Assembly (NCBI GenBank): GCA_048882485.1
Contig: JBHLRP010000006.1
Span: 32,001-96,000 of the forward strand
Length of the DNA: 64,000 nt
DNA from: Candidatus Thorarchaeota archaeon
Lineage (GTDB): Archaea > Asgardarchaeota > Thorarchaeia > Thorarchaeales > Thorarchaeaceae
Reading direction: 5' to 3'
The notes beneath the pieces were generated by a model. The model was given only the letters and a program-made list of their open reading frames with translations, searched no databases and was not told the DNA's origin. A program made the translations under genes and the position numbers. This document shows positions 30,075-44,509 of this stretch, in pieces. Each line of letters opens with the position of its first letter. Within the stretch, counting starts at the first letter, position 1.

Positions 30075-30623
30075 TTATCCACGTGCAGGATAAGTGAGGG
30101 TTATCTTGAACCTGCAGGCATCACCCTTGGCAGACATGCATGTCTCTTCCATAATGAGTAGCTTTTCATGCCCCATTCTATTGTAGTCTGTCAGGTACTC
30201 CATCACGGCTTCTATGAATCCTCTGAGGAAGTAGCATGATGGTTCTTCCGCCTCATAACCAGATGCATAGGGATTGTCTTGAATTCGAACAATCGCCTCC
30301 TCATCGAGAAACAGCTTGTACAGGTTCTCAATCTCAACGTCGCCAAATGGCACAATCAGTGTCTTTAGAGCCATTTTGAGAAACTCAACAATTCCCTTGA
30401 AATCGCTTGGGGGCTTTTGATTTGCTACTTTGAAATACTCACGCTGCGCCTCCAGACCAGCCAGTCGTCCAGCGCTGTAATAGAGATCTCTGACACGATC
30501 AGGGAACATTACCTCAATGCGATTTCCAAGCTTATTCCATGTCTTGGCGAAAAACGCTCTCATCAAGTCTTTTTCTTTGACTCGGCTTTGCCACCAAGGA
30601 ATAACAGGATCTCGTTTAGACAT
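30075..30623 (-). CDS. V4R/Bet3-fold protein
   Basis: LYYSAGRLAG, PSCYFLRGFIEA, EETCMSAKGDACRF V4R motif. Confidence 0.82.
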   Translation of the reverse strand: MSKRDPVIPWWQSRVKEKDLMRAFFAKTWNKLGNRIEVMFPDRVRDLYYSAGRLAGLEAQREYFKVANQKPPSDFKGIVEFLKMALKTLIVPFGDVEIENLYKLFLDEEAIVRIQDNPYASGYEAEEPSCYFLRGFIEAVMEYLTDYNRMGHEKLLIMEETCMSAKGDACRFKITLTYPARG

Positions 30624-30683
30624 TGTAGAGTCTCCGAAGCTGGAGGAACGCAAGGGCGGTGTTAAGTGCTTTGCTACGACTTG

Positions 30684-31157
30684 CTAGACAAGACGTATGT
30701 TCCAGGTGCAATTGTCAGCTCCAGTGGCTTTGCATAGCTCTTGGAAGACCTTGGCATCAACACCTTTGAACTCTAGGATTACCTCCAGAATCCCGCTGAA
30801 CGCCTCGCAATAGCCAAATCCTCTCATTCCCTCTAGCGTGATTTCCTGGCACCAAATGCAATCCCTATCAGCGACTCTTATAGAGCCCCGTGCAGATTTC
30901 AGATCCACATCAGTGGGTTTCCGATCAAAAAGCAACCTGTAGATGCCATCTATAAGCTTTGCAACATCCTCGCGGGTCATCACTGTATCCTTTGTCTTTG
31001 ATGCGAGCTCGGTTGTAAGGTAAAGATGAGACCCCATCTCCCTTCCCGTGTCGCGAAGCCGTTGATTAGCCTCATCTATGTTGCTGGTTTCTGATAGGAC
31101 TCTTTCAACCCATTGAGCATAAAGACTTACGAATAGTGGGTTTTCGACTTTTGCCAT
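30684..31157 (-). CDS. Bet3/TRAPP-like V4R protein
   Basis: KVENPLFVSLY...EANQRL...GREMG Bet3-like N-terminus; YCEAFSGIL, QELCKATGADNC. Confidence 0.82.
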   Translation of the reverse strand: MAKVENPLFVSLYAQWVERVLSETSNIDEANQRLRDTGREMGSHLYLTTELASKTKDTVMTREDVAKLIDGIYRLLFDRKPTDVDLKSARGSIRVADRDCIWCQEITLEGMRGFGYCEAFSGILEVILEFKGVDAKVFQELCKATGADNCTWNIRLV

Positions 31158-31181
31158 TTATGTGGACCTCACTCAAGTTGT

Positions 31182-32174
31182 CTAGATAGTCTTGCCAATC
31201 ATGTTGATACCAAACTTCTTGTTGCGAGCGATTGTCTGAATCACTTCAGCATTTTGAATGCCTAGTAGTTCTGCGATTTCCTCAGTAGTCCTACTGCCAT
31301 CACAGAGTCTCAATATCTCAAGATCCTCCCCTTTGGCCTTGGACAAGTCTCCGATAAACTTGGGACACTTCACAAATCGACCCATCGTGTCCTCAGAAAC
31401 AGCTACGGTTTCTTCATCACACAACGGAGCCTCCACCATACCCTTTGATGCAGCCCACTTGATAAGTTCAGCAACTCTCTCATTTGGCTGAAACATTGAA
31501 TCAGCAATTCCTGCAACTGTAGCAGAACCATCCACTAACATCAGTACATCAAAGCCGAAGTTCCCATGCACCTGCTTCATTTCATTGTGTAGATCTGAAT
31601 CCAGATTGAGGGCATCTCCGTAACTTGGACCTCGCTTCGGAATTGTAGTGGGCTGTACATTGAATGCTTCTGGAGGCTTGGCCGCTTCTTCTGCAATATG
31701 TTCGGGCTTTGTCTCAATCAGATCCTCAGGTTCCGGCACTACAAACTCAGGCTCACTAGCTTCAGGTGTCGTTGATGCCGCTTGCATTGCTATGCTTTCG
31801 AGTACTTTCAGGTTGGATTCTGCTGATTCCTCAAATTCATCAGGCGGCGGCGGAAGCTCAATGCCCTCCAATAATCTTAGAACATTCTTAGTCTTGGCAA
31901 TAGCAAGGCCAAGCTGCAACTCCGTGACATAAAGAACAGTCAGTATCCAATTCAAATCAACGGGAGAGAGGACCACTAGACCTCGGTCCGTGTCGATTGT
32001 CATGAGGCGCAAATCGGTCTTGTATAGATTGATGCTATCCCTGACTCTAGGGAATAGCTCTGAAGGAAAAGAGAAGCTCACAAACGGCCTGCCGGCTTTC
32101 GTCATCAGCGAATAGCCGAGCACCTGTTCATCGAATCTCAGTTTTGCGAGGGCTCTTTCCAAATCGCTGCTCAT
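31182..32174 (-). CDS. Roadblock/profilin-like N-domain protein with Pro/Glu linker and two wHTH-like domains
   Basis: VLGYSLMTKAGRPF..QLGLA; MLVDGSATVAGIA and LCDGSRTTEEIA; paralog of 34117-35100. Confidence 0.7.
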   Translation of the reverse strand: MSSDLERALAKLRFDEQVLGYSLMTKAGRPFVSFSFPSELFPRVRDSINLYKTDLRLMTIDTDRGLVVLSPVDLNWILTVLYVTELQLGLAIAKTKNVLRLLEGIELPPPPDEFEESAESNLKVLESIAMQAASTTPEASEPEFVVPEPEDLIETKPEHIAEEAAKPPEAFNVQPTTIPKRGPSYGDALNLDSDLHNEMKQVHGNFGFDVLMLVDGSATVAGIADSMFQPNERVAELIKWAASKGMVEAPLCDEETVAVSEDTMGRFVKCPKFIGDLSKAKGEDLEILRLCDGSRTTEEIAELLGIQNAEVIQTIARNKKFGINMIGKTI

Positions 32175-32399
32175 ATTTGCACCTCTATACCGTTTTAGAC
32201 CAATCTAGGCTTGCCTCTGCTGGTTTCCATCGGTGGTGGTCTGAAAAGCATTGTGGTTTTGCAAAGAGAGAATTCGTTGACAACTCAATGATTCCCATAG
32301 CTCTGATATAATACGGCCAATTGAATCCGAATCTAGGAAACCGTTAAGAGGGTCATTTATACGCCAAAGCACGACTCGAGGATATCAAGAGGCCACATC

Positions 32400-33038
32400 A
32401 TGAGAAATATGTTGGGTGGACTGCTGGCGGCAATCATTGGTTCGTGGCTACTGGTGTTCATTTTGAATCTGAGCCAGCCAGCCTATCCGCAAGAACTGAT
32501 ATTCCTGTGGGGGCTTCTTACAGGCAGTCAATACTTGAGTCACACCTACACCCTTCTTTCAGATCCTTTTGCTCTCGTATCGTATTCTGCTGTATGGGTA
32601 ATCATGGGTTTTATTATAGCTCCATTCTCGAAGTCTGGATGGAATTCAGTTAGAACTGCAGTCTGGACAGGTGTATGGGTCAGTGTTTGGGCATTGACCT
32701 CAATCCTCCTTTTGGATCCTGCTTTTTGGAGCGATCCAAATCGCAACTGGAGCCTTCTCATATTGTTGACATCAACGATAATGACTGCTAGTATCTCACT
32801 TTTGTCAGCATACCCAGCAGCTAGAATCATTCGACTAGCTTCTCGCGAGAGAGAGCTACCAATCCCGGAGAAGATAGAAACTAGATGCCAGTGTGGAGCG
32901 GTGTTCAAGTCAAAACCCATTGTGTGTTCTGAATGTGGTAGGACACTCCATAATGAGCGCACAATTGACGATAATGCCTACTTATCGTTCTCTGGTGATG
33001 CCTCCCCCGAGGATACCACCGACTACAGCAGCAATTGA
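32400..33038 (+). CDS. Membrane protein with C-terminal zinc ribbon
   Basis: 4 TM helices then CQCG...CSECG. Confidence 0.75.
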   Translation: MRNMLGGLLAAIIGSWLLVFILNLSQPAYPQELIFLWGLLTGSQYLSHTYTLLSDPFALVSYSAVWVIMGFIIAPFSKSGWNSVRTAVWTGVWVSVWALTSILLLDPAFWSDPNRNWSLLILLTSTIMTASISLLSAYPAARIIRLASRERELPIPEKIETRCQCGAVFKSKPIVCSECGRTLHNERTIDDNAYLSFSGDASPEDTTDYSSN

Positions 33039-33500
33039 ACTGTAGATTGATCCATAGAGCACTTTTTCAAGGAGATACATGGAAGGACCTCCAAATAGAG
33101 CCATGATATTAAAATCAGGCTGGATTGCAAAAACAAGCAACCATGTCAAAAACGCTCCAGCTATCACAGCGAATAGAGCAGCAAGAATCCCTGAAAGAAT
33201 GTCGCGAGCAAAAAGACCAGCCATTAGACCGCCAGTCCCCCATGCAAGCGCCATCAAGACGGTCCCGCCTTGTGCACCGGTTCCAAGAATGGCTCCAAGA
33301 CTTTCCATGCCAACAGGTGCAGGATATAACACAGTTGAAACAACTGCGAGCCGCAACTCCAAATCGGTATAGGATAGGAAATCGCCGACAATAGTCGACG
33401 AGATGAGATCTTCAGGCATGATTCCACCAAACGTCAATATGACGAAGGCGATTGCAAAGGCAGTGATTAAGCCTACAAACGTGCCAAGAAGCTGACCCAA
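32982..33500 (-). CDS. Gly-rich multi-pass membrane protein (start uncertain)
   Basis: Hydrophobic helices with GxxxG patterns; TTG start with GGAGG RBS near 33500. Confidence 0.7.
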   Translation of the reverse strand: MGQLLGTFVGLITAFAIAFVILTFGGIMPEDLISSTIVGDFLSYTDLELRLAVVSTVLYPAPVGMESLGAILGTGAQGGTVLMALAWGTGGLMAGLFARDILSGILAALFAVIAGAFLTWLLVFAIQPDFNIMALFGGPSMYLLEKVLYGSIYSSIAAVVGGILGGGITRER

Positions 33501-33607
33501 GCGCGGTCCTCCGATATGTCTACTATGCTCTTCTTGATTCGTGCTTTTATATACATATGCGCGACGGCACGGCAAAATTGCCTAGATTCGTGTCGCAATC
33601 GGTAATT

Positions 33608-34114
33608 TTATGGATATTTCCTCAGAGTCCAGGTACAGGCATCATCACCTAGTGCTTTGCAGGATTCTTGGAAGCTATCAGCCTTGAATCCTCTAAGCTC
33701 CATGACAGCGTCAAATACTCCGGAGACAATATTGCAGTATTGTAGGCCAGGCATATCGCTGACCTCAACTCCGGCACATATTGGACAATCATCATCCGTG
33801 AACTTAATGGTGTTCTTGTCGTCGCTGACCCAAATGTCTGTGAACTCTTGGCCAGAATTGACCTTGTATGCCAATCCAAGAGTGTTGGCGAACTCGTGAA
33901 ACTGGCCTGCGTGTTGCCGAATTCTATCGGCGTAGTCCATTAACAGAGTTTCACCCACCTTGAACCCAATCTGCTTCATCTTGCGATTGATTTCTTCCAC
34001 ACTCTCGCTACTCGCCATAAGTAAATTCATCATCTCTCTATAACTCGCTTGGAATAGAACCTTAGAGACCTTATCGGTCATGAATGACCAAGCAATCTTG
34101 CCTTTGATTCCCAT
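33608..34114 (-). CDS. Bet3/TRAPP-like V4R protein
   Basis: KVSKVLFQASY.....SVEEINRKMKQIGFKVGETLLMDY matches the Bet3 (TRAPPC3) N-terminal pattern; LQYCNIVSGV, QESCKALGDDAC. Confidence 0.85.
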   Translation of the reverse strand: MGIKGKIAWSFMTDKVSKVLFQASYREMMNLLMASSESVEEINRKMKQIGFKVGETLLMDYADRIRQHAGQFHEFANTLGLAYKVNSGQEFTDIWVSDDKNTIKFTDDDCPICAGVEVSDMPGLQYCNIVSGVFDAVMELRGFKADSFQESCKALGDDACTWTLRKYP

Positions 34115-34116
34115 TA

Positions 34117-35100
34117 TTATGACACCTCTGGTTCAGTGTCCATCTTCTTGCTTTTGCGTATGAAACGTAGCGTTTTGCCACGATAGGGAAGTATGCTCTG
34201 CAGAGCCTGGAAGTATGGAATACCAAGTTCGTGGGATATATCCTGAAGAGAGCGATTTCCATCACATAGAGACAGAAGATCTCGATGTTCTTTCTTTGCT
34301 TTCTTTAATTCGCCCTCAAAGATTGGCAGCTCAATAATCTCAACGGCGCCAGTTTCTTGCGTATCAGGACACTCCACTCGAACTATCTTTCTGGGTACAC
34401 ACCAGCGAATTACTCCAAGCGCTTCTTCGACTCCACGGCCAAGACTCTCAGCAATCTTGAAGATTGTCCGTTTCTCATCAGCCATCAGCAGGATATCGAT
34501 TCCAATATTTGCAAATCTGGCTTTGATTTCTTTGTTGAGATCGGATTCAAGAGTCATCGTTTCATTATACTTCTCTCCACGAAAGACAACACAACCATGC
34601 CTAATCTCTACTTCCGGTTCTGCTATAGCAGGTTCAACCTCAGCTACTGGCTTCAGCTCTGTTTCAGGCAATTCTGGTTCGATAACAGTTTCTGCAGCCA
34701 TAGTTCTCGCGGACTCCTCTACTTGAACTCGGAGAGGCGGCTCTGGTTGTGGAACAGGAGTAGGCGGTGGAGGTAGAATGACACTTTTCATCAGGTTGAT
34801 TACTTCCGTTGCCTTCTGAAGAGCCACTCCAAGCTGCAAGTCTGGCAGGAAAAGTACTGCAAGTACCCAATTCCCATCTACTCTAGACAGGATGACTGTG
34901 CCTTCTCCTGTCATGACATTCATCATCTTCAAAGAGTCTGAATGAATCCGCATAGCACCTTGTATTTGTGGAAGAACCTCATCAGGAAGAGAAAATGAGA
35001 GAAATGGCTGACCATCGTTCGTGATTAGAGCGTATCCGCTGACAGTATCATCAAATTTGAGTTTGGTCAAAACACGCTCTAATTCCAAGAAGACGTACAC
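34117..35100 (-). CDS. Roadblock/profilin-like N-domain protein with Pro/Glu linker and wHTH-like domains
   Basis: VSGYALITNDGQPFLSFS..QLGVA; LCDGNRSLQDIS; paralog of 31182-32174. Confidence 0.7.
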   Translation of the reverse strand: MYVFLELERVLTKLKFDDTVSGYALITNDGQPFLSFSLPDEVLPQIQGAMRIHSDSLKMMNVMTGEGTVILSRVDGNWVLAVLFLPDLQLGVALQKATEVINLMKSVILPPPPTPVPQPEPPLRVQVEESARTMAAETVIEPELPETELKPVAEVEPAIAEPEVEIRHGCVVFRGEKYNETMTLESDLNKEIKARFANIGIDILLMADEKRTIFKIAESLGRGVEEALGVIRWCVPRKIVRVECPDTQETGAVEIIELPIFEGELKKAKKEHRDLLSLCDGNRSLQDISHELGIPYFQALQSILPYRGKTLRFIRKSKKMDTEPEVS

Positions 35101-36264: not shown

Positions 36265-36729
36265 TCAGATCTTCTTTAATGCAGCCTTCACCATGGCTGT
36301 GATTCGGTTTTCATCAATGCCCGTTTTCTTGGCCACTTTATCAATCTCACAATATGCCAAATCGGATAATGACTTTATGCCAGCCTCTACTAGCTTCTGT
36401 GCCTCATCCTTTTTGACCGCTCGTAGTGATGACAGCTCTTCTACCGCCTTGTCATCTTTCTTTGTCCTTTTCGGCTTGGCTACTTCAATCTTGGTCATCT
36501 GAGCAACAAGTTCATCGAGGTCCTTGATATACTGCTTTAAAGCTTCCACGTTCTCTTCATGGGTCGTCTTCCGTCTGACATCTATTATGAGGCCCATCCG
36601 GCGTGCCTCTTCAATCGCCAGTCCAGCCTTCTTTGTTTCATCAATACTAAAACCTCGTCCGCGCCGTGGATCTGCTTTGCTAGGCGACTTAACGAGGGGT
36701 TCTGCTGCTATTTCAAAGGTCAAGGACAA
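36265..36729 (-). CDS. rpl13e: 50S ribosomal protein L13e with C-terminal HhH-like extension
   Basis: RRGRGFSIDE.KKAGL....ARRMGLIIDVRRKT.HEENVEAL; tail EAQKLVEAGIKSLSDLA. Confidence 0.9.
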   Translation of the reverse strand: MSLTFEIAAEPLVKSPSKADPRRGRGFSIDETKKAGLAIEEARRMGLIIDVRRKTTHEENVEALKQYIKDLDELVAQMTKIEVAKPKRTKKDDKAVEELSSLRAVKKDEAQKLVEAGIKSLSDLAYCEIDKVAKKTGIDENRITAMVKAALKKI

Positions 36730-36759: not shown

Positions 36760-36816
36760 TACTTATTAGGCTTTCGAGATGGCAAGAGTCTGCATATTCG
36801 TGTACGCTAATAGGCA
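36760..36816 (+). repeat. Cassette site 1 (core A + right unit B')
   Basis: TACTTATTAG-GCTTT-CGAGATGGCA agagtc TGCATATTCG-TGTACG-CTAATAGGCA. Confidence 0.92.
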
Positions 36817-36987
36817 AATTAGTTTTCGAGGGATTTTAATGGTGCATAGATTATACAAAGAAGTACTCAATCGTAGATATATGAACCATTCATCACAAGC
36901 GTTATGGCAAGCACTCTCTGTTGCTAAAAGGATGCCCCCACCTACCAAACTAACTTCTCAATGGATATTGAGATAAGAGCGATGGTT

Positions 36988-37818
36988 CTATTCAAACTTT
37001 TCAAACTTATCTTTAGGCAATTTTGAAGACCGAAGCAAACCTTTCTGTTTCTCAATCTTCTCCTCTTGCTCATCTGAAGGTCGTATCAAACGTTTCTGCT
37101 CATCAATCTTCAACCTTCGCTCTTCAGTGAGTCTTGTTGGATCAATCTTCCCTTCACGAAGTATCTCCTTGAATTCATCGATGAGGTAATCCTTGATTGT
37201 GCAAAGTGAGCCACTTTCATACCTATCGCATTCTCGGATCATATCTGGAAAATAGTAAAAGCTTTCCCTCATCAAATAATGTATCGCCATGTCATCATCA
37301 TAATAGTCTGGTTCTTTTTCAAGAACAAACAAGTAATATTCCTCTATTATATGGACATCGAGAATATCATCACTATATGCAATCTTCTTTGGATACGATT
37401 TCGCATACTCCTTCAGGATACAGAAATCAACATCAGTCATAATAGAAGCGATATGTTCTGCTATAGACTTCTTCACAGTGCGAATAATACTCAACTGGCT
37501 ATCCAATGCCCCATCTTGAATGCGTTCTTTCAATTCAGCATCATAGATCCAATATCTAGAGAATTCAACTAGTCCTTCAAGTTCATCTTGAATCTTTGAC
37601 GGTAATTTCGAGAAGCTAGGAAAGGTTCTGAGAGCAAAGAATGAAGGTCCAGCCTTTTCATACTGCTCCTGTATCCCACGGTTCGTAGTCTTCTCATGTC
37701 GATTTCGATCAATCTTCTCGAGAATTGTGAGAATCGTACTAATCGAGTGGTCTTCATCTTTCGACTCTCGTGTTGGCGAGATTACACCTCTGTTGTCATC
37801 ATCGCTAATCTAATCCAA
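36988..37818 (-). pseudogene. Cassette 1 hypothetical protein; frame extends well upstream of the called TTG and contains one TAG
   Basis: ORF 36988-37533 frame stays open to 37809, preceded by TTG GAT TAG (TAG at 37810-37812). Confidence 0.5.
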
Positions 37819-37956
37819 CCCCCTGTACAAACGAGAAGTGCTCTACGATTTATGTCTTCCCAGCTCAGATGTGTTGCAATATCAACTCTGGTAGTATTAT
37901 ATGATATGTTAAAAGTGGAAGACAGAAGGGAGTTGCCAAACAGATTTATTCAGATG

Positions 37957-38013
37957 CGCGTTTAAGTATATATTAGTTGGCAGGAGTTCGCCTATTAGGC
38001 TTTCGAGATGGCA
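37957..38013 (+). repeat. Cassette site 2 (left unit B + core A)
   Basis: CGCGTTTAAG-TATATA-TTAGTTGGCA ggagtt CGCCTATTAG-GCTTT-CGAGATGGCA, then a partial B' arm CGCCGTTAG. Confidence 0.92.
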
Positions 38014-38041
38014 AGGAATCGCCGTTAGTTCATAGTGATTA

Positions 38042-38242
38042 CTAGCGTTTCATTGACAGGACAAGTGCCTCTGTCAATACTCCTAGAGCAAAGAGAGCAG
38101 CCAGAGGGAGAATGACGAATATGAAGGGGACTTCAGGGCTCATACCTGGAGGGTGAATGTCCAGAAGTATGAACACTATAGTAGCCACTATCAGAATGCC
38201 AGAGATCAGAATTAACTTTCTGGGTCTACTCATGGAGTCCAA
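38042..38242 (-). CDS. Cassette 2: small two-TM membrane protein
   Basis: 66 aa, two hydrophobic helices; similar to ORF 42381-42611. Confidence 0.7.
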   Translation of the reverse strand: MDSMSRPRKLILISGILIVATIVFILLDIHPPGMSPEVPFIFVILPLAALFALGVLTEALVLSMKR

Positions 38243-38341
38243 TTGATTTCCCTGTAGCCTTCACTCTTTGTACACATATGCTTTTGGACAACTCACAGTT
38301 CACTACGAAGAAGACTATCATTCGGAGCCTTTACTTAGATA

Positions 38342-38430
38342 GGCGTTTAAGTATATACTAGGAGGCAAAAGGCCGCTTATTAGGCTTTCGAGATGGCAAT
38401 GAAATGCGTATTATGTAGGAGTGACTGGCA
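38342..38430 (+). repeat. Cassette site 3 (B + A + B')
   Basis: GGCGTTTAAG-TATATA-CTAGGAGGCA aaaggc CGCTTATTAG-GCTTT-CGAGATGGCA atgaaa TGCGTATTAT-GTAGGA-GTGACTGGCA. Confidence 0.92.
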
Positions 38431-38566
38431 TTGACTGAGGCCGTTTGCTTTCCTGTAATACCTCCAGAACGAGCACTACCACCTGTGCTTGAGGATAGCA
38501 TTGCACGTTTGTGAATGAATCACATGACGCTCATTCTTGATTCTGAGTTTCTTGCCTATTAGTGGT

Positions 38567-39664
38567 TCAAGTTCTCCTCATTCTCAATAGAAACAAGCCA
38601 AGTATTGCTGCCCCCACAATCAATACTATGAGTATAGGATATAAAAGAGGTATGATTCCTGGATATGTCCTCGGAAATCTGTCTTCGTGTCCTGATGAAC
38701 CATCAATCAAGTATGTGCCAAATCCGAAATAATCATCCCAATAGTTGCCTAATTGATTTGAGTCATCCCAAGTGTTATTTGTTCCTCGATCGCGTGCATT
38801 GGACACTCCGTTTCGTAGAAAGTAATTCTCATAAAGCACATTTCCAGATCCTTCCAAATCAATCCCATACCCTGAGTTGTCAGAAAGGATGTTTCCAATG
38901 AATTTACAGTTCATCGCAAAAGCAGTTATGCCATAGGCACCAGAATCAGCAATATTGTTTTGTAGCACCTCAATCTGTGATATTTCATCCAGGTGCATTC
39001 CATGACTATTGCTTGAGTGAATTGAGTTTGAAATGATTCTTAAATTGGATGCATTACTGAGATGCATACCAGTCGATTGAGAGTCTGTAATTTGATTGTC
39101 TACAATACTTGTGTTCGTTGCGTCTATCATATCAATTCCTGAGTTCAACATCACATTACTAGAAAACGCACAATTATCAACACGGATTGCGTAGATGCCT
39201 TGACTTTGTTGTGACCGTACATCGTTACCAGTCATGTTAGTATTCTCGCACTCGACCAAAAGGACACACGCTGCATTCCCATCAATATCACAGTCCTCGA
39301 TGATACCGTTTTCGACATTTATGAGTTCGATAGCATTGTAGCCAAGTGCTGTGCTTTCAAACCAATAGGACTCCAGCTGACAGTTTCTAATGGTGAAATA
39401 TACAGTAGTATTGCTAATTGAGATACAAGAGGTGTTTGTAAAAATCCGTATATTCTCAATGATGAAGGGATGCGCGACAGAGCCATCCCCAGGCCACCCT
39501 TGTTCAGTGAAATTTGAGTCATCCGAAATGACTATTGGCGGATGATCTGTAGTAGCAATAGCGGCGTCAAGAGTTAATCGATTAATGGTGGTATATGCAA
39601 GAAAGGGTATTGAAACAATTACTAGTAGAATTGCAACTGATGTTACACGCCACACCGAATTCAC
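38567..39664 (-). CDS. Cassette 3: NosD/CASH right-handed beta-helix surface protein
   Basis: Signal/TM N-terminus, GWPGDGS...PFIIEN, repeated N.I..N..YGI coils, GNYWDDY, DRFP, C-terminal TM; AT-rich DNA. Confidence 0.88.
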   Translation of the reverse strand: MNSVWRVTSVAILLVIVSIPFLAYTTINRLTLDAAIATTDHPPIVISDDSNFTEQGWPGDGSVAHPFIIENIRIFTNTSCISISNTTVYFTIRNCQLESYWFESTALGYNAIELINVENGIIEDCDIDGNAACVLLVECENTNMTGNDVRSQQSQGIYAIRVDNCAFSSNVMLNSGIDMIDATNTSIVDNQITDSQSTGMHLSNASNLRIISNSIHSSNSHGMHLDEISQIEVLQNNIADSGAYGITAFAMNCKFIGNILSDNSGYGIDLEGSGNVLYENYFLRNGVSNARDRGTNNTWDDSNQLGNYWDDYFGFGTYLIDGSSGHEDRFPRTYPGIIPLLYPILIVLIVGAAILGLFLLRMRRT

Positions 39665-39833
39665 TATGACAATATATACTAATTCTGTTATTGAAGTTTA
39701 TCCCAGAAGATGCTCTAGATTTGTGAAGATCCCAATTCTTAATTGATTCCTTAAATTCTCAACAAAAGGCATCCTTGAATCGAATACGTAATAGTATCAC
39801 TATGGAGACAGGAATGATGATTTTGTTCAAATT

Positions 39834-39922
39834 CGCCTTTAAGCAAAGACTAGTTCGCAGGTTCCTGCTTATTAGGCTTTCGAGATGGCATTACTCTGCG
39901 TATTCGTGTACGCTAGAAGGCA
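39834..39922 (+). repeat. Cassette site 4 (B + A + B')
   Basis: CGCCTTTAAG-CAAAGA-CTAGTTCGCA ggttcc TGCTTATTAG-GCTTT-CGAGATGGCA ttactc TGCGTATTCG-TGTACG-CTAGAAGGCA. Confidence 0.93.
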
Positions 39923-39994
39923 AAGTCCAAAAAGTGACATAGGTTGATTCACTCTGTTCTGAGAGAGAAGAAGGAGGAAAAGGCATGACGGAAA

Positions 39995-40234
39995 GTGAAT
40001 AAGATGCATGAGGACAGAAGGAAGTGGTTAGCTGTAATTGTACTGGTTATTCCATTAATACTGATATTTCTCATATTTGCACCGTCATACTATGAAACTT
40101 TGACGATTGAAGGAAAACGTGTTTTTATGTTGGTGTTTCAGATTGTATTCCTATACACTTTAGGCGGTCTTGTGTTGCGTTGGCTTGAAGGTAGACATAA
40201 AGTAAAGGATGACTCAAACACGCCTTTGACTTAA
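39995..40234 (+). CDS. Cassette 4: small two-TM membrane protein
   Basis: 79 aa with two hydrophobic helices; its stop codon lies inside unit B of site 5. Confidence 0.7.
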   Translation: MNKMHEDRRKWLAVIVLVIPLILIFLIFAPSYYETLTIEGKRVFMLVFQIVFLYTLGGLVLRWLEGRHKVKDDSNTPLT

Positions 40235-40277
40235 CGCTAAGAGGAATTCTCGCGTGGATTAGGCTTTCGAGATGGCA
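40221..40277 (+). repeat. Cassette site 5 (B + A)
   Basis: CGCCTTTGAC-TTAACG-CTAAGAGGAA ttctcg CGTGGATTAG-GCTTT-CGAGATGGCA; lies between two convergent stop codons. Confidence 0.9.
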
Positions 40278-40289
40278 AAACAATATCAT

Positions 40290-41087
40290 TCACTTGATAT
40301 CCAGTCCGAAAACAGACTCGACTAATTCAGCAAATCGTGCGACAAAGCGAGCTGCAGGACCGCCATCAACCACATCATGGTTCATGAAGATACTGACACA
40401 GAGGTATTCTCTAGCCAAAATGCTATCATCAATGACAGCTGGCTTCATTGCGATACCTCCTAGCGCAAAAAGCACAGGAGAGATGCTAATGGGGATGGCC
40501 CATCCACTTTTTCCCTTGCCATACATTCCAACTGCTGTAACTGTGACTGTACCAAGGTGCTTCTTGACAAAAAAGGGGTCAGTTCTAAACTTTCGCCAAA
40601 ACAGGAAGTCACGCAGAAACTTTGGCAGTGCGAAAAGTCTTCGCATCATTTTTCGATTGATTGTATCAGAAATGTCACCATCTGTACGATATCGAACTGC
40701 CCATATTTCATCCTGGATCTCATGCACAGTTTTTTCATTGGCTTTTCTTACAATGTATGTCTGAGCTCCTATCTCTTCATCCACCTGTCTTTCAACCATG
40801 ACTGAAACATCTACATCTTTGAAAATGATCAATCGCTTCCCTTTTTTTATTGCATGAACATTTCTATGTTCGCTGACAGCTTGTGCGATGCACTTTGTTA
40901 TCCAAGCTGTAAAGGAGAGCTCTCTTCCTGAGCTGTCTTCGTACTCTTTAATTAGTTGACGGCCTTTTGTGACATCCACCTCTATTAGACCTGAAATATA
41001 GTGGGAACGAAGTCCTTGTTCCATTAATTCCACAACAATCTCACGCTCAAAGGGCTTTTCCTCATATTCTTCTATCAGGTCCATCAC
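40290..41087 (-). CDS. Cassette 5: stand-alone 2-oxoacid dehydrogenase acyltransferase catalytic-domain protein
   Basis: EVDVT, SFTAWITKCIAQA, GTVTVTAVG, MNHDVVDGGPAARF; no lipoyl domain. Confidence 0.88.
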   Translation of the reverse strand: MMDLIEEYEEKPFEREIVVELMEQGLRSHYISGLIEVDVTKGRQLIKEYEDSSGRELSFTAWITKCIAQAVSEHRNVHAIKKGKRLIIFKDVDVSVMVERQVDEEIGAQTYIVRKANEKTVHEIQDEIWAVRYRTDGDISDTINRKMMRRLFALPKFLRDFLFWRKFRTDPFFVKKHLGTVTVTAVGMYGKGKSGWAIPISISPVLFALGGIAMKPAVIDDSILAREYLCVSIFMNHDVVDGGPAARFVARFAELVESVFGLDIK

Positions 41088-41165
41088 AATCCTAGCAATG
41101 AGGATTGTAGCTTCAACGTATTACTGTTTTGTCCAACCAAAAAGCTCGAGAGGTTTGTTTAGACG

Positions 41166-41221
41166 TGAGATTAAGTATAAAGCTGGGACAATCAATCGCC
41201 GCCTAGGCTTTTGAGCTAGAT
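41166..41221 (+). repeat. Cassette site 6 (degenerate)
   Basis: TGAGATTAAG-TATAAA... then CGCCGCCTAG-GCTTT-TGAGCTAGAT at about the expected spacing. Confidence 0.6.
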
Positions 41222-41355
41222 AATGAAAAGGCAGGAGCATCTGAAACATTACTGTATCAGATAGAGTCATAGCGGCAGTTTTGCATAGTTGCCTGCGCTG
41301 AGAGGAATAATAATAGGACGCATTACATCTACTGTGAGAAGGAGGGGTCCACACA

Positions 41356-42180
41356 ATGAAGTGTCGAATAGGAAATTCCGAAGTTCACTATGAAATGTAT
41401 GGAGAAGGCAGACCAATCATCAGCTTACATGGTTTCACTCTAGACCACCGTTCGATGGTCGGCAGCATGGAACCTATCTTCGAGAGTAGAAATGGTTGGA
41501 AACGGATATACCTAGACTTGCCAGGACACGGTCAAACTCCAGGTCAGGAATGGATTAAGAACTCAGATAACATGCTGCAGGTTGTAATAGACTTCATTGA
41601 CAATGTGATTCCTGACACGAGCTTCGCAATTGCAGGCTTGTCTTATGGTGGTTATCTAGCGCGAGGTTTAGTTCATAATAGACCAAAGCAAGTACTTGGA
41701 CTACTACTAATCGTTCCTAGGATTATTGGCCGCTCAGAAGATAGAATACGTCCTGAAAAGGCTGTGCTGGTGAGAGATGAAGAGTTTCTTTGCAGCCTTG
41801 AAGAAGAGGAACGCGAGAATTTTGTAGAGGTAGCAGTAATCCAAACTGAAGACATTTGGCCTCGCTATGCAGAGGAGATTGTACCTGCTGTTCAGATATC
41901 AGACACACAATTTCTAGGACGCTTGCAACCTGGTGATGATGATTTCAGCTTCGAAGTCGATTCTCTCTCTGTCATTTTCAGTGGTCCGACCCTCATTCTG
42001 GTAGGCCGACAAGATCATTGGGTGGGATATGAAGACGCTTGGAGAATCTTGGAAAAATATCCTCGCGCAACATTCGCGGTCTTGGATAGAGCAGGTCATG
42101 CTTTGCAGCTTGAGCAGACTGAGTTGTTCAATATGCTTGTATCTGAGTGGCTTGATAGAGTAGAAGAAGCTGAGAAGTAA
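41356..42180 (+). CDS. Cassette 6: alpha/beta hydrolase
   Basis: LHGF, YLDLPGHG, GLSYGG nucleophile elbow, GRQD, AGH. Confidence 0.92.
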   Translation: MKCRIGNSEVHYEMYGEGRPIISLHGFTLDHRSMVGSMEPIFESRNGWKRIYLDLPGHGQTPGQEWIKNSDNMLQVVIDFIDNVIPDTSFAIAGLSYGGYLARGLVHNRPKQVLGLLLIVPRIIGRSEDRIRPEKAVLVRDEEFLCSLEEEERENFVEVAVIQTEDIWPRYAEEIVPAVQISDTQFLGRLQPGDDDFSFEVDSLSVIFSGPTLILVGRQDHWVGYEDAWRILEKYPRATFAVLDRAGHALQLEQTELFNMLVSEWLDRVEEAEK

Positions 42181-42274
42181 ATGAGGCCTCCGTGGCAGAC
42201 ACTCCTCACTCCTCTATGCTGCTATTGCGCCACACATTCCACTGTTGCTATGACGATTACATGCACTAGGATCT

Positions 42275-42299
42275 TGACCTATCACTTTTCGAGATAGCA
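42275..42299 (+). repeat. Cassette site 7 (degenerate core)
   Basis: TGACCTATCA-CTTTT-CGAGATAGCA in the gap between two convergent genes. Confidence 0.5.
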
Positions 42300-42380
42300 G
42301 TAGCTTGACGTCTATGCAGGCTTGTAAAGCGGATATCATGAGCATATGGGAGGTTTGTTGATTGTGATGTCTTCCTCTTA

Positions 42381-42611
42381 TCACTCCCGTTTCCTCGTCA
42401 ACACTGCTGCCATCGCCACCATTGTTAATGGAATGACTATACTCAGAGGCAGTATGATGAACAACAGGGGCATTTGGATGTCGATTCCCTGGGGAATCAT
42501 TTCCAGTAGCACATACACGATGGTGATAGCAAGCAGAGCTGTCATCACAATCAGGATCCCACCCCAAAGATATGCCCACCATGGCGCTCTGCCCAACGAG
42601 CCTTTCCCCAT
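42381..42611 (-). CDS. Cassette 7: small two-TM membrane protein
   Basis: ATG at 42611; GILIV..TIVYVLLE.IPQG...MPLLFIILPL similar to ORF 38042-38242. Confidence 0.7.
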   Translation of the reverse strand: MGKGSLGRAPWWAYLWGGILIVMTALLAITIVYVLLEMIPQGIDIQMPLLFIILPLSIVIPLTMVAMAAVLTRKRE

Positions 42612-42858
42612 GTATTCCTGATGAGTTCCTACCTTACTTGGTTGACGCAAGGAATTCAACTTATTCACTCTGATACTCGCTCTTTGCACACATATGCTTT
42701 TGCTCAAACCATTGTTCACTCCAAGATGCCATCATTTTGAAGCCATCTGAATGTGCGCCTATGCCTGAACTATGATGCAGAAGTTTGTCCATTGAAATCC
42801 GGTTGGATGCTATCTCCACTCGGTTTAGGCTAGTGTATACGGAGAAACGGTTCTGAAA

Positions 42859-43551
42859 TCAAAGAATGATGGTTCTCCGACTATCCAGCCAGAATGCAAC
42901 CAAAGCAAACAATGCGTATAGGATTTCTGACACCAAGGCGACAGTCAACATGTCTGGAAAGGTTTGGAAAGGAGTGATGATTATGAAGATGACAAGCGCA
43001 AACAGGAATGCAGATATGCCATATTTGCCCAATAGTCCGGTTCCTGAAGTGGTTGAATAGAAGTATATCAAGCCACCACCCAAGAGAATGATGGTCTCCA
43101 GTAGTATCGTTGCCGGAATGCTATTCCATAGGCCCAGTCCTATTTTCATGTCTATTCCAGGAATCAATAGCAAATCCGGTGTATGAACAAGAAAATCCAA
43201 GAGGTAATGAGATAGAACACCAACACCAAAGAGAAGAGCTGTTCTGTTTTTATAGGCGGCAGTTGCTGTTGAACTCCTCAAAGCAATGTACCTAACGAAA
43301 AGGAACACAGCCGCAGTCCAAGCAAGTGATCCAACTAGACTATGGGTAATTGGGAGATCATAGAGGTCAAAGGAATTAGCAGCTGTAAAACCTGGAGCAA
43401 TCCGAGCGTTCTCGATTCCCAAGGGAAGGAAGATGAAGAAAGCAATATCCACCAGCTGCACAGCGATAAAAAGGAAGCCAAGTGATATTCCCGGGGCATA
43501 TTTCTTTAGACCTAGAGCTATTCCATAATGTCCTATAAACACAAGAGTCAA
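42859..43551 (-). CDS. Membrane-bound metal-dependent hydrolase (YdjM/LexA-inducible-like)
   Basis: FIGH, QLVD, ITHSL, LSHYLLDFLVH motifs, multiple TM helices. Confidence 0.82.
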   Translation of the reverse strand: MTLVFIGHYGIALGLKKYAPGISLGFLFIAVQLVDIAFFIFLPLGIENARIAPGFTAANSFDLYDLPITHSLVGSLAWTAAVFLFVRYIALRSSTATAAYKNRTALLFGVGVLSHYLLDFLVHTPDLLLIPGIDMKIGLGLWNSIPATILLETIILLGGGLIYFYSTTSGTGLLGKYGISAFLFALVIFIIITPFQTFPDMLTVALVSEILYALFALVAFWLDSRRTIIL

Positions 43552-43594
43552 GCCTCAGACCTGAATAAAAGTATTGACATTTCAAATTGGCTCT

Positions 43595-44410
43595 TCAGAA
43601 ATCCTCAAGCGAAGTCTGTTTGATTGAGATGAAATTCTCCATCAGTTTCAGCTTCTGGAGCTGGCGTGGTGTGATACGTTCCATTAATTGTAGCATCTGT
43701 AGTGCATTGAATGGTGAATTTCCACTGAAATGATTGTTCCAGTACCCTAGAACCAACTCCGTCCGATTCATGATATCTTCTAGACGAGGCTTCCAAGCCA
43801 TTAGCTCTTCTTCGGAGTAGAGGTAGTTGTACCACGGATTCACTCCATGGCCATGCCAGCGCACATACGCGAAATCAGTTGTGACACGCAAATCAATTGG
43901 GAGTTTGGGCTCATCAACAATAACGTAGGCCACCCCATAGTCCTCAAGCAACCTTGATGTCTTCTGAGACAGCCAGCTCTCATCCCTGAACTCAATGGCA
44001 TATCGAAAAGATGAGTCGAGCTGCGAGAGGAAGGCTTCAAGGTCTGCCATCTTCGATATATCCCAAGGAGGAAGTTGAATGAGCAAAGCCGCAATCTTGT
44101 TCTGAATCGGACTCATAAGTGAAAAGAACGATTTCAGTACTTCACCCCCTTCTCCTAATAGATTCATCCGACTGTCATGTGTCACTTTCTTGGGGAGCTT
44201 GGCTGTGAAGAATTTGCCCTCTTTGAGTGAAGCCAGATGCTTTATGAAATTAGGTTGCGGGAGAGAATAAAAGGTTGAGTTAATTTCCGCAGTTTCAAAG
44301 ATTGCAAGATACTGTTGAAGGAGTGATTTTCCTGAGTAATAGAACACATCCTTCCAATCACTCTCATATGACCAACCACTTGTGCCAATATGGAGTCCTT
44401 TTCTTGACAT
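43595..44410 (-). CDS. DUF72 family protein
   Basis: IGTSGWSY, EINSTFY, KLPKKVTH, LIQLPP, AIEFRDESW, YVRWHG, YLYS, WNN. Confidence 0.93.
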   Translation of the reverse strand: MSRKGLHIGTSGWSYESDWKDVFYYSGKSLLQQYLAIFETAEINSTFYSLPQPNFIKHLASLKEGKFFTAKLPKKVTHDSRMNLLGEGGEVLKSFFSLMSPIQNKIAALLIQLPPWDISKMADLEAFLSQLDSSFRYAIEFRDESWLSQKTSRLLEDYGVAYVIVDEPKLPIDLRVTTDFAYVRWHGHGVNPWYNYLYSEEELMAWKPRLEDIMNRTELVLGYWNNHFSGNSPFNALQMLQLMERITPRQLQKLKLMENFISIKQTSLEDF

Positions 44411-44509
44411 TGTCACAATATGTTGATGGAATCAAATGGGTTTCTATCTTCCGGCATTGAAGAAGAGATTCATAAGAAACAAGAACTGCGATGCAAGTGT
44501 GAATGACCA

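What the first reader, a model, noticed from the sequence alone, without database searches (positions are those of the whole stretch)
36760..43560. Integron-like gene cassette array delimited by an unfamiliar repeated site, anchored at rpl13e
Seen: the 20-mer ATTAGGCTTTCGAGATGGCA recurs exactly in cores at 36760, 37989, 38374, 39866 and 40253, with degenerate copies at 41197 and 42275, all in the same orientation. Each interval (0.4-1.5 kb) holds one unrelated gene: hypothetical protein, 2-TM peptide, NosD beta-helix, 2-TM peptide, stand-alone acyltransferase, alpha/beta hydrolase, 2-TM peptide, then a membrane hydrolase. Genes face both ways while the sites keep one orientation, and site 5 sits between two convergent stop codons, where a promoter or operator makes no sense. 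Spacers are gene-sized, so this is not CRISPR, and the sites lack the GTTRRRY/RYYYAAC ends and long hairpin of integron attC. Inference: a site-specific recombination platform that captures single-gene modules in tandem, comparable in logic to integrons or Xer/pdif modules but with its own site. I do not recognise it as a described system.
Basis: partly seen in the sequence, partly recalled or inferred. Interest (0 to 1): 0.95.

Follow-up and report, generated by a model that had tools for sequence, protein, structure and literature searches.

The report
Integrase-built gene cassettes at rpl13e promoter
In this Asgard archaeon (Thorarchaeota), small one-gene modules are stacked and reshuffled at a short DNA site just in front of a ribosomal protein gene, and relatives carry the likely enzyme, a small DNA-cutting-and-joining integrase, right next to that site, so this is an integron-like gene-capture system built on the host gene's own probable promoter.

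Summary
The array is real. The 20-mer occurs five times, only here in the genome; two decayed copies have weak support. The 23-bp core lies at a fixed distance before rpl13e in most family genomes. Twelve loci are empty (site directly beside DUF72); others hold different modules, and the same modules recur in other slots, some across genera. A ~290-aa Xer-like tyrosine integrase with all six catalytic residues starts ~80 bp from the site in four relatives, once as a complete 1.86-kb site-int-cargo-site element. Cassette 1 here begins with 45 codons of that integrase. Best reading: the modules are integrase-deleted satellites of a small integrative element, accreted in tandem (CIME-like). It is not an integron: no IntI, no attC fold. 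The core reads as the rpl13e BRE/TATA on the bottom strand (inferred). The same integrase clade and arms build arrays at other cores, two of them also promoter-placed. Recombination, circles and transcription are not shown. The scan noted this array in another genome and integrase-less arrays at other Thorarchaeota anchors.

The parts
36265..36729 (-). rpl13e, fixed anchor gene (with C-terminal HhH-like extension)
   Evidence: Pfam PF01294; next to the site in 65 loci
36761..36783 (+). Site 1, anchor core (attL-like); bottom strand reads as BRE+TATA of rpl13e (inferred)
36784..36838 (+). Right arm of integrase type, with TGC motif and leader of int
   Evidence: near-identical to the arm before intact integrase P0003
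36839..36976 (+). Integrase 5' remnant, 45 codons then stop
   Evidence: 80% identical to P0003 residues 1-44, E 1e-24
36988..37809 (-). Cassette 1 cargo: hypothetical protein, 273 open codons, first canonical start at 37533
   Evidence: no Pfam hit
37940..37989 (+). Left arm (distal AGAT..GCG-TTTAAG motif, proximal GCA-N7-GC)
37990..38012 (+). Site 2 core
38042..38242 (-). Cassette 2 (385 bp): small membrane peptide
   Evidence: homologous module in G001, G016, G065
38325..38374 (+). Left arm
38375..38397 (+). Site 3 core
38567..39664 (-). Cassette 3 (1492 bp): NosD/beta-helix surface protein
   Evidence: same 1492-bp module in G005 (97.7%) and in slot 1 of G011
39817..39866 (+). Left arm, second type
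39867..39889 (+). Site 4 core
39995..40234 (+). Cassette 4 (387 bp): 2-TM peptide
   Evidence: 389-bp module 90.5% identical in G076, another genus
40254..40276 (+). Site 5 core, between convergent genes
40290..41087 (-). Cassette 5 (943 bp): stand-alone E2-type acyltransferase domain
   Evidence: 942-bp module in slot 1 of G009
41150..41220 (+). Left arm plus decayed site 6 (core 41198-41220)
   Evidence: nhmmer E 0.21; module boundary matches G009
41356..42180 (+). Cassette 6 (1078 bp): alpha/beta hydrolase
42277..42298 (+). Decayed site 7 (1 nt short)
   Evidence: nhmmer E 1.1; following unit matches a complete cassette of G005
42381..42719 (-). Small membrane protein, older unit
42859..43551 (-). 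YdjM-like membrane hydrolase, oldest unit; site-bounded in G009
43595..44416 (-). DUF72 gene, fixed far border; adjoins the site in empty loci

Best explanation
The repeat is the attachment site of a family of small Thorarchaeota integrative elements that encode a ~290-aa Xer-like tyrosine integrase. The chromosomal target is a 23-bp core 38-41 bp before the rpl13e start, overlapping its probable BRE/TATA. An element is laid out as core, right arm, int, cargo, left arm, core. Internal deletions leave both arms and one cargo gene, giving 0.4-1.5-kb integrase-less satellites. When an intact element supplies integrase in trans, satellites excise and re-insert at any core copy, so they stack in one orientation and change order, and the oldest sites decay at the DUF72 end. 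Each insertion regenerates the core, so rpl13e keeps its promoter. SHOWN: empty and filled loci, shuffled site-bounded modules, integrase beside the site, remnants at cassette starts, intact catalytic residues, no hairpin. INFERRED: that this integrase does the recombination, circular intermediates, action in trans, promoter function, a crossover within core positions 5-17, and transfer between cells.
For: Core (up to 3 mismatches) in 59/86 family genomes, 0 for the reversed control. Anchor-to-DUF72 gap 12-85 bp in 12 loci and up to 6814 bp here. 43 complete site-to-site modules of 385-1965 bp; shared modules occur in different slots. A module is 90.5% identical across genera where the flanking housekeeping DNA is 63% identical. 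Integrase starts ~80 bp right of the anchor in G109, G018, L152/153 and L160; L153 is a full 1858-bp site-int-cargo-site unit. Twelve units carry int or an int 5' piece at that position, ten at E<0.01 and including window cassette 1. G093 unit 1 keeps the int 5' end and the 3' end of the gene that ends the 9-11-kb elements of L156/L157, as expected of an internal deletion. Catalytic R130 K156 H221 R224 W247 Y257 are invariant, and the fold is a tyrosine recombinase, top hit XerA 5hxy. Flanks switch allegiance across the core: left positions track the left arm, positions 20 onward track the right arm.
Against: No integrase gene was found in G000 (genome 90.5% complete), and an intact or long int sits at only 4 of 65 anchors. 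No circle or excision joint at a site appeared in four runs, which were contigs only. In G018 and G109 no right-hand core was found before DUF72. The core is a poor inverted repeat, and position 19 does not track the right arm, so the crossover is not pinned. How cargo first enters between the arms is unexplained.
Confidence: 0.8

Rival explanations
1. A true integron analogue: a sedentary recombinase plus attI-like anchor captures free cassettes that were never part of an autonomous element.
For: Single-gene modules, one site orientation, decay away from the anchor, and int directly beside the anchor in four loci.
Against: int is missing from most anchors. It also sits behind an internal-type left arm (P0003), leaves remnants in slot 2, and lies inside the site-bounded unit in L153. 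No conserved tyrosine recombinase in the family (29/86).
Confidence: 0.08
2. Short-homology or host recombination between copies of a portable rpl13e promoter builds and shuffles the array; the integrase element is only one passenger.
For: The core is a 19-23-bp identity block. The left part is conserved even where the right part is absent. G000 has many other integrase-less arrays according to unchecked scan notes.
Against: Modules carry conserved arms outside the core (GC(A/G) left in 29/45; TGC/CGC right in 47/96 filled sites versus 0/12 empty ones). The same arms flank the integrase and recur at loci with different cores.
Confidence: 0.07
3. Non-autonomous transposons (MITE- or casposon-like) that duplicate a long target on insertion.
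For: In L153 both sites share the host's variant over 19 bp, and some core variants are shared within a genome.
Against: No terminal inverted repeats (own ends 0.34 versus other ends 0.35 identity). Core positions 1-4 follow the module's left arm, not the host. The associated enzyme is a tyrosine recombinase.
Confidence: 0.04
4. A transcription-factor operator or promoter shared by a co-regulated gene cluster.
For: The core looks like BRE/TATA, and 27 of 43 modules have their longest ORF on the strand it would drive.
Against: It is confined to one locus, sits between convergent stops, keeps one orientation, and bounds modules that change order.
Confidence: 0.01

Closest known systems
CIMEs and tandem accretion at att sites (ICESt1/ICESt3-type; reviewed in PMC5704250)
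   Same: Elements that lost their integration genes but kept attL/attR, stacked in tandem by site-specific integration of later elements at the same site.
   Different: Units here are single genes of 0.4-1.5 kb shared and reshuffled across genera. The target is an intergenic, promoter-placed site, not a gene 3' end. No conjugation genes were seen in the complete 1.86-kb element. The host is an Asgard archaeon.
Tycheposon-built islands of Prochlorococcus (10.1101/2020.12.28.424599)
   Same: Transient integrase-bearing elements, successive insertion at one site pushing older units outward, fragmented integrases left behind.
   Different: Those use tRNA/tmRNA ends and build loose islands. Here the site is not a tRNA and each unit is a compact arm-bounded module.
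Integrons, including archaeal ones (PMC9668308)
   Same: Tandem arrays of short gene modules separated by same-orientation recombination sites; tyrosine recombinase beside the first site.
   Different: No IntI, no folded attC; the integrase is mobile and mostly absent; genes face both ways.
Xer/dif and pdif modules (own knowledge; PMC9771954 listed, not read)
   Same: Xer-sized two-domain recombinase; single genes between short sites.
   Different: No dif core motif; the recombinase is element-borne and far below the XerA cut-off; arms extend beyond the core.
Yucahu-i and mini-Yucahu of Atabeyarchaeia (PMC11529989)
   Same: Asgard tyrosine-integrase element with a short att motif and a smaller excisable derivative.
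   Different: 11-bp AT-rich motif, plasmid-like 10.9-kb element, no multi-cassette array described in the passages read.

Membership tests
Integron | IntI integrase with the IntI-specific domain | tested here: not met
   TIGR02249 38-54 bits against a cut-off of 265, partial stretches only
Integron | attC sites that fold as single-strand hairpins | tested here: not met
   45 internal sites, both strands, mean z +0.09 to +0.26; 1 of 270 folds below -2
Integron | RYYYAAC...GTTRRRY frame | tested here: not met
   0 of 45 sites and 0 in the array; the frame is rare in this DNA anyway. IntegronFinder itself was not available.
Integron | Tandem array of short gene modules in variable order | tested here: met
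Integron | Sedentary recombinase gene outside the mobile units | tested here: not met
   int lies inside the site-bounded unit (L153) and is missing from most loci
CIME / tandem accretion | Units keep att ends but have lost the integrase of a related autonomous element | tested here: met
   int remnants at unit starts and shared arms
CIME / tandem accretion | Tandem stacking at one chromosomal site, with empty sites in relatives | tested here: met
CIME / tandem accretion | Parent is a conjugative or mobilizable element (ICE/IME) | tested here: inconclusive
   only PF00589 called in the int-bearing loci; no dedicated relaxase search run
CIME / tandem accretion | Excision and mobilisation by the helper's integrase | not testable with these tools
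   needs raw reads or an assay; contigs showed no joint at a site
Xer/dif, pdif | Conserved host XerA/XerCD orthologue | tested here: not met
   NF040815 88-98 bits against a cut-off of 220; PF00589 in 29/86 genomes, 8/23 near-complete ones
Xer/dif, pdif | dif core ATAA-N6-TTAT | tested here: not met
   0 of 45 sites
tRNA-anchored islands (tycheposon type) | att site within a tRNA/tmRNA gene | tested here: not met
   no Rfam match of note; no tRNA gene called near the array
MITE / casposon | Terminal inverted repeats | tested here: not met
Tyrosine recombinase superfamily (the enzyme) | R-K-H-R-H/W-Y catalytic set and core-binding plus catalytic fold | tested here: met

The most novel reading that the evidence does not exclude
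A retargetable gene-capture system of Thorarchaeota. One integrase clade reads constant outer arms while the 12-13-bp inside of the core is taken from the host, preferentially the BRE/TATA of housekeeping genes. Every cassette junction is then also a promoter, one cassette pool feeds several loci, and related enzymes may explain the integrase-less arrays at other anchors in this phylum.
Probability: 0.35. Interest if true: 0.9.

Novelty: new variant of a known kind. Interest (0 to 1): 0.76.

Why it matters
It gives Asgard archaea a concrete route for gaining and swapping single accessory genes, with a named candidate enzyme and a defined site that can be assayed. Integration at a core promoter rather than a tRNA or gene end is unusual (own knowledge; the paper searches found no description), and would protect the site from loss and might express the cargo. 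The same integrase clade sits at four different cores with shared arms, which suggests a small recombinase with changeable target interiors. That is of mechanistic and tool interest, and a lead for the many integrase-less arrays noted in Thorarchaeota.

Tried and rejected
Tyrosine and serine recombinase searches in the own genome were blank; a profile of the new integrase found only the remnant here and two weak distant pieces on C1 and C17 with no repeats around them. Rfam found nothing. attC folding, the attC frame, the dif core and terminal inverted repeats were all negative. Reads: no RNA holder listed. Four DNA runs were contigs only and gave no joint at a site, which is no evidence either way. 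The crossover could not be pinned. A left-arm-only scan of the genome found no further convincing sites. I first read the unit in G067 as an integrase-only cassette; this was an offset error, and the match is to the 177-aa HExxH gene. The Atlas search for that protein gave only a weak Peptidase_M78 lead (0.89). In viral contigs the best relative was 41% identical and was not examined further. Literature searches found no description of this system.
Full report
OBSERVATION. The 20-mer occurs five times on + at 36765, 37994, 38379, 39871 and 40258, against 0.00 expected, and nowhere else in the 3.96-Mb assembly within 3 mismatches. It is part of a 23-bp core, GCTTATTAGGCTTTCGAGATGGC. Internal copies have a ~50-bp left arm, and filled sites often have a TGC about 8 bp to the right, giving an outer symmetry GCA-N7-GC...GC-N7-TGC. 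The decayed copies at 41198 and 42277 are weak alone but fall at module boundaries seen in relatives. Units measure 1229, 385, 1492, 387, 943 and 1078 bp, then 1312 bp to DUF72. The array is 42% GC against 46% in the flanks. Family relatives are Ca. Thorarchaeota.

COMPARISON ACROSS RELATIVES. The core is found in 59 of 86 family genomes. I analysed 65 anchor sites and 45 internal sites. The rpl13e-DUF72 interval is empty in 12 loci (12-85 bp) and holds up to 6.8 kb here. Of 43 complete site-to-site modules, several recur with the same ends in other slots. The acyltransferase module is slot 5 here and slot 1 in G009. The NosD module is slot 3 here and in G005, with other neighbours, and slot 1 in G011. 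The 387-bp module is 90.5% identical in G076, another genus, where the neighbouring housekeeping DNA is 63% identical. These genomes are related and not independent, so the counts are descriptive.

THE ENZYME. G000 has no recognisable tyrosine or serine recombinase, but a family-wide search put one beside the anchor in G109. The same gene starts ~80 bp right of the anchor in G018, in JGI contigs L152/L153 and in L160. L153 is complete: rpl13e, site, int, two or three small ORFs, site, DUF72, 1858 bp between sites. The protein has 291-297 aa and invariant R130, K156, H221, R224, W247, Y257. Its model (pLDDT 83) matches XerA, XerH, lambda Int and Cre folds. It is far below the cut-offs for XerA (88-98 vs 220) and IntI (38-54 vs 265). 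It belongs to a small well-supported clade (97/96) with few close relatives among 1.8 billion representatives. Cassette 1 of the window begins with 45 codons 80% identical to integrase P0003, behind nearly the same right arm. Twelve units have int or an int 5' piece at this position. G093 unit 1 retains the first gene's start and the last gene's end of the 9-11-kb elements in L156/L157. Inference: cassettes are internal-deletion satellites of the element. In G018 and G109 the assembly breaks inside int, so its rarity may be partly technical.

THE SITE. It does not fold and lacks the attC frame, the dif core and terminal inverted repeats. Positions up to 4 follow the left arm and positions 20 onward follow the right arm. 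In the L156 element the repeat ends at position 17. The exchange therefore probably lies in positions 5-17, with a 6-7-bp spacer near GCTTTC (inferred; position 19 does not fit cleanly). On the bottom strand the core reads GAAAG-CC-TAATAAG. Its TATA-like part lies 38-41 bp from the rpl13e ATG in 52 of the 56 loci where a start could be scored. That agrees with the genome-wide peak of TATA-like words 35-39 bp before SD-anchored starts and with a TATA about 28 nt before the transcription start (PMC8553660, abstract). This part is kept even in genomes that lack the right end of the core. I infer it is the rpl13e promoter; no RNA data were available.

OTHER LOCI OF THE SAME CLADE. Close integrases or their remnants sit ~80 bp from three other cores, each repeated. 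One lies before a conserved 96-aa gene (L157, L163; 35/86 genomes; two copies in G000 on C3). One lies before an acyl-CoA dehydrogenase (L164, L180; 27/86 genomes, up to six copies). One bounds a 10.9-kb element (L156). All begin GC-N-TAT and differ inside. The acyl-CoA arrays use the same left-arm motif and share cargo families with the rpl13e arrays. G008 has an rpl13e-type core between two cores of the 96-aa type. P0003 sits behind an acyl-CoA-type core yet groups with the rpl13e integrases, with moderate support (90/95). The 96-aa and acyl-CoA cores also read as BRE/TATA before a divergent housekeeping gene; the L156 core does not. This is the basis of the novel case, and it is untested.

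MECHANISM. Element circle (left arm, core, right arm, int) recombines with the chromosomal core. Deletion removes int and leaves a one-gene satellite. Later helper elements supply integrase in trans, and satellites excise and re-insert at any core, giving same-direction stacks in varying order with decay at the far end. Variation, modules, enzyme position and remnants are shown. Catalysis, circles, action in trans and promoter activity are inferred. No circle joint was seen, but only contigs were available.

KNOWN SYSTEMS. It works like an integron but fails the membership tests. It matches the CIME accretion scheme (PMC5704250) and the tycheposon island model in logic. It differs in target (a promoter-placed intergenic site), unit size, cassette sharing, and a common arm set across different cores. 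Archaeal integrons are defined by IntI and folded attC (PMC9668308). The passages read from the Asgard mobile-element paper describe no such array (PMC11529989). Earlier scan notes record this array in another genome and integrase-less arrays at tRNA, rRNA, DUF35 and nrdD anchors; these are unchecked, and I did not test whether this integrase clade serves them. Verdict: real, a new variant of a known kind, interest 0.76.

Noticed in passing
G000 contig C3, 143429 (minus strand), outside the window: Second small array in this genome: two copies of the core before the conserved 96-aa gene, 879 bp apart, enclosing one 210-aa gene.
   Followed up: partly
L088 (G008:C375): Mixed array: an rpl13e-type core between two cores of the 96-aa type; the first unit joins an int 5' piece to the gene and left arm of window cassette 4.
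   Followed up: partly
L164, L168-L179: Arrays of up to six copies of a third core before an acyl-CoA dehydrogenase gene, with the same left-arm motif; an int remnant is at the first site in G100.
   Followed up: partly
L157:18705-19238 and L156:20254-20787: A 177-aa HExxH protein ends the 9-11-kb elements and leaves fragments in rpl13e cassettes; possibly an ImmA/IrrE-like regulator (only a weak Atlas lead).
   Followed up: partly
L165 (G016:C413), L181, L184: More distant integrases of the wider clade sit by other 24-26-bp direct repeats, one before a long gene that looks like a Hef-type helicase (by eye, not searched).
   Followed up: no
L141 (G018:C17): A second, 95% identical copy of the rpl13e-type integrase in G018 leads into a 20-kb accessory region that lacks DUF72.
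   Followed up: no
window 36265-36729; L045, L046, L086: rpl13e carries a C-terminal HhH-like extension, with a long linker insertion in some genomes; distant genera have only the ~70-aa N-terminal part.
   Followed up: no
window 30075-35100: Duplicated pair of a V4R/TRAPP-like gene and a ~330-aa gene upstream of the pfkB-rpl13e block, conserved in the family.
   Followed up: no
left arms, e.g. window 37961-37970: The arm's TTTAAG word is the reverse of CTTAAA, the most enriched hexamer upstream of SD-anchored starts in this genome (13 vs 0); the arm may hold a second promoter, direction unknown.
   Followed up: no
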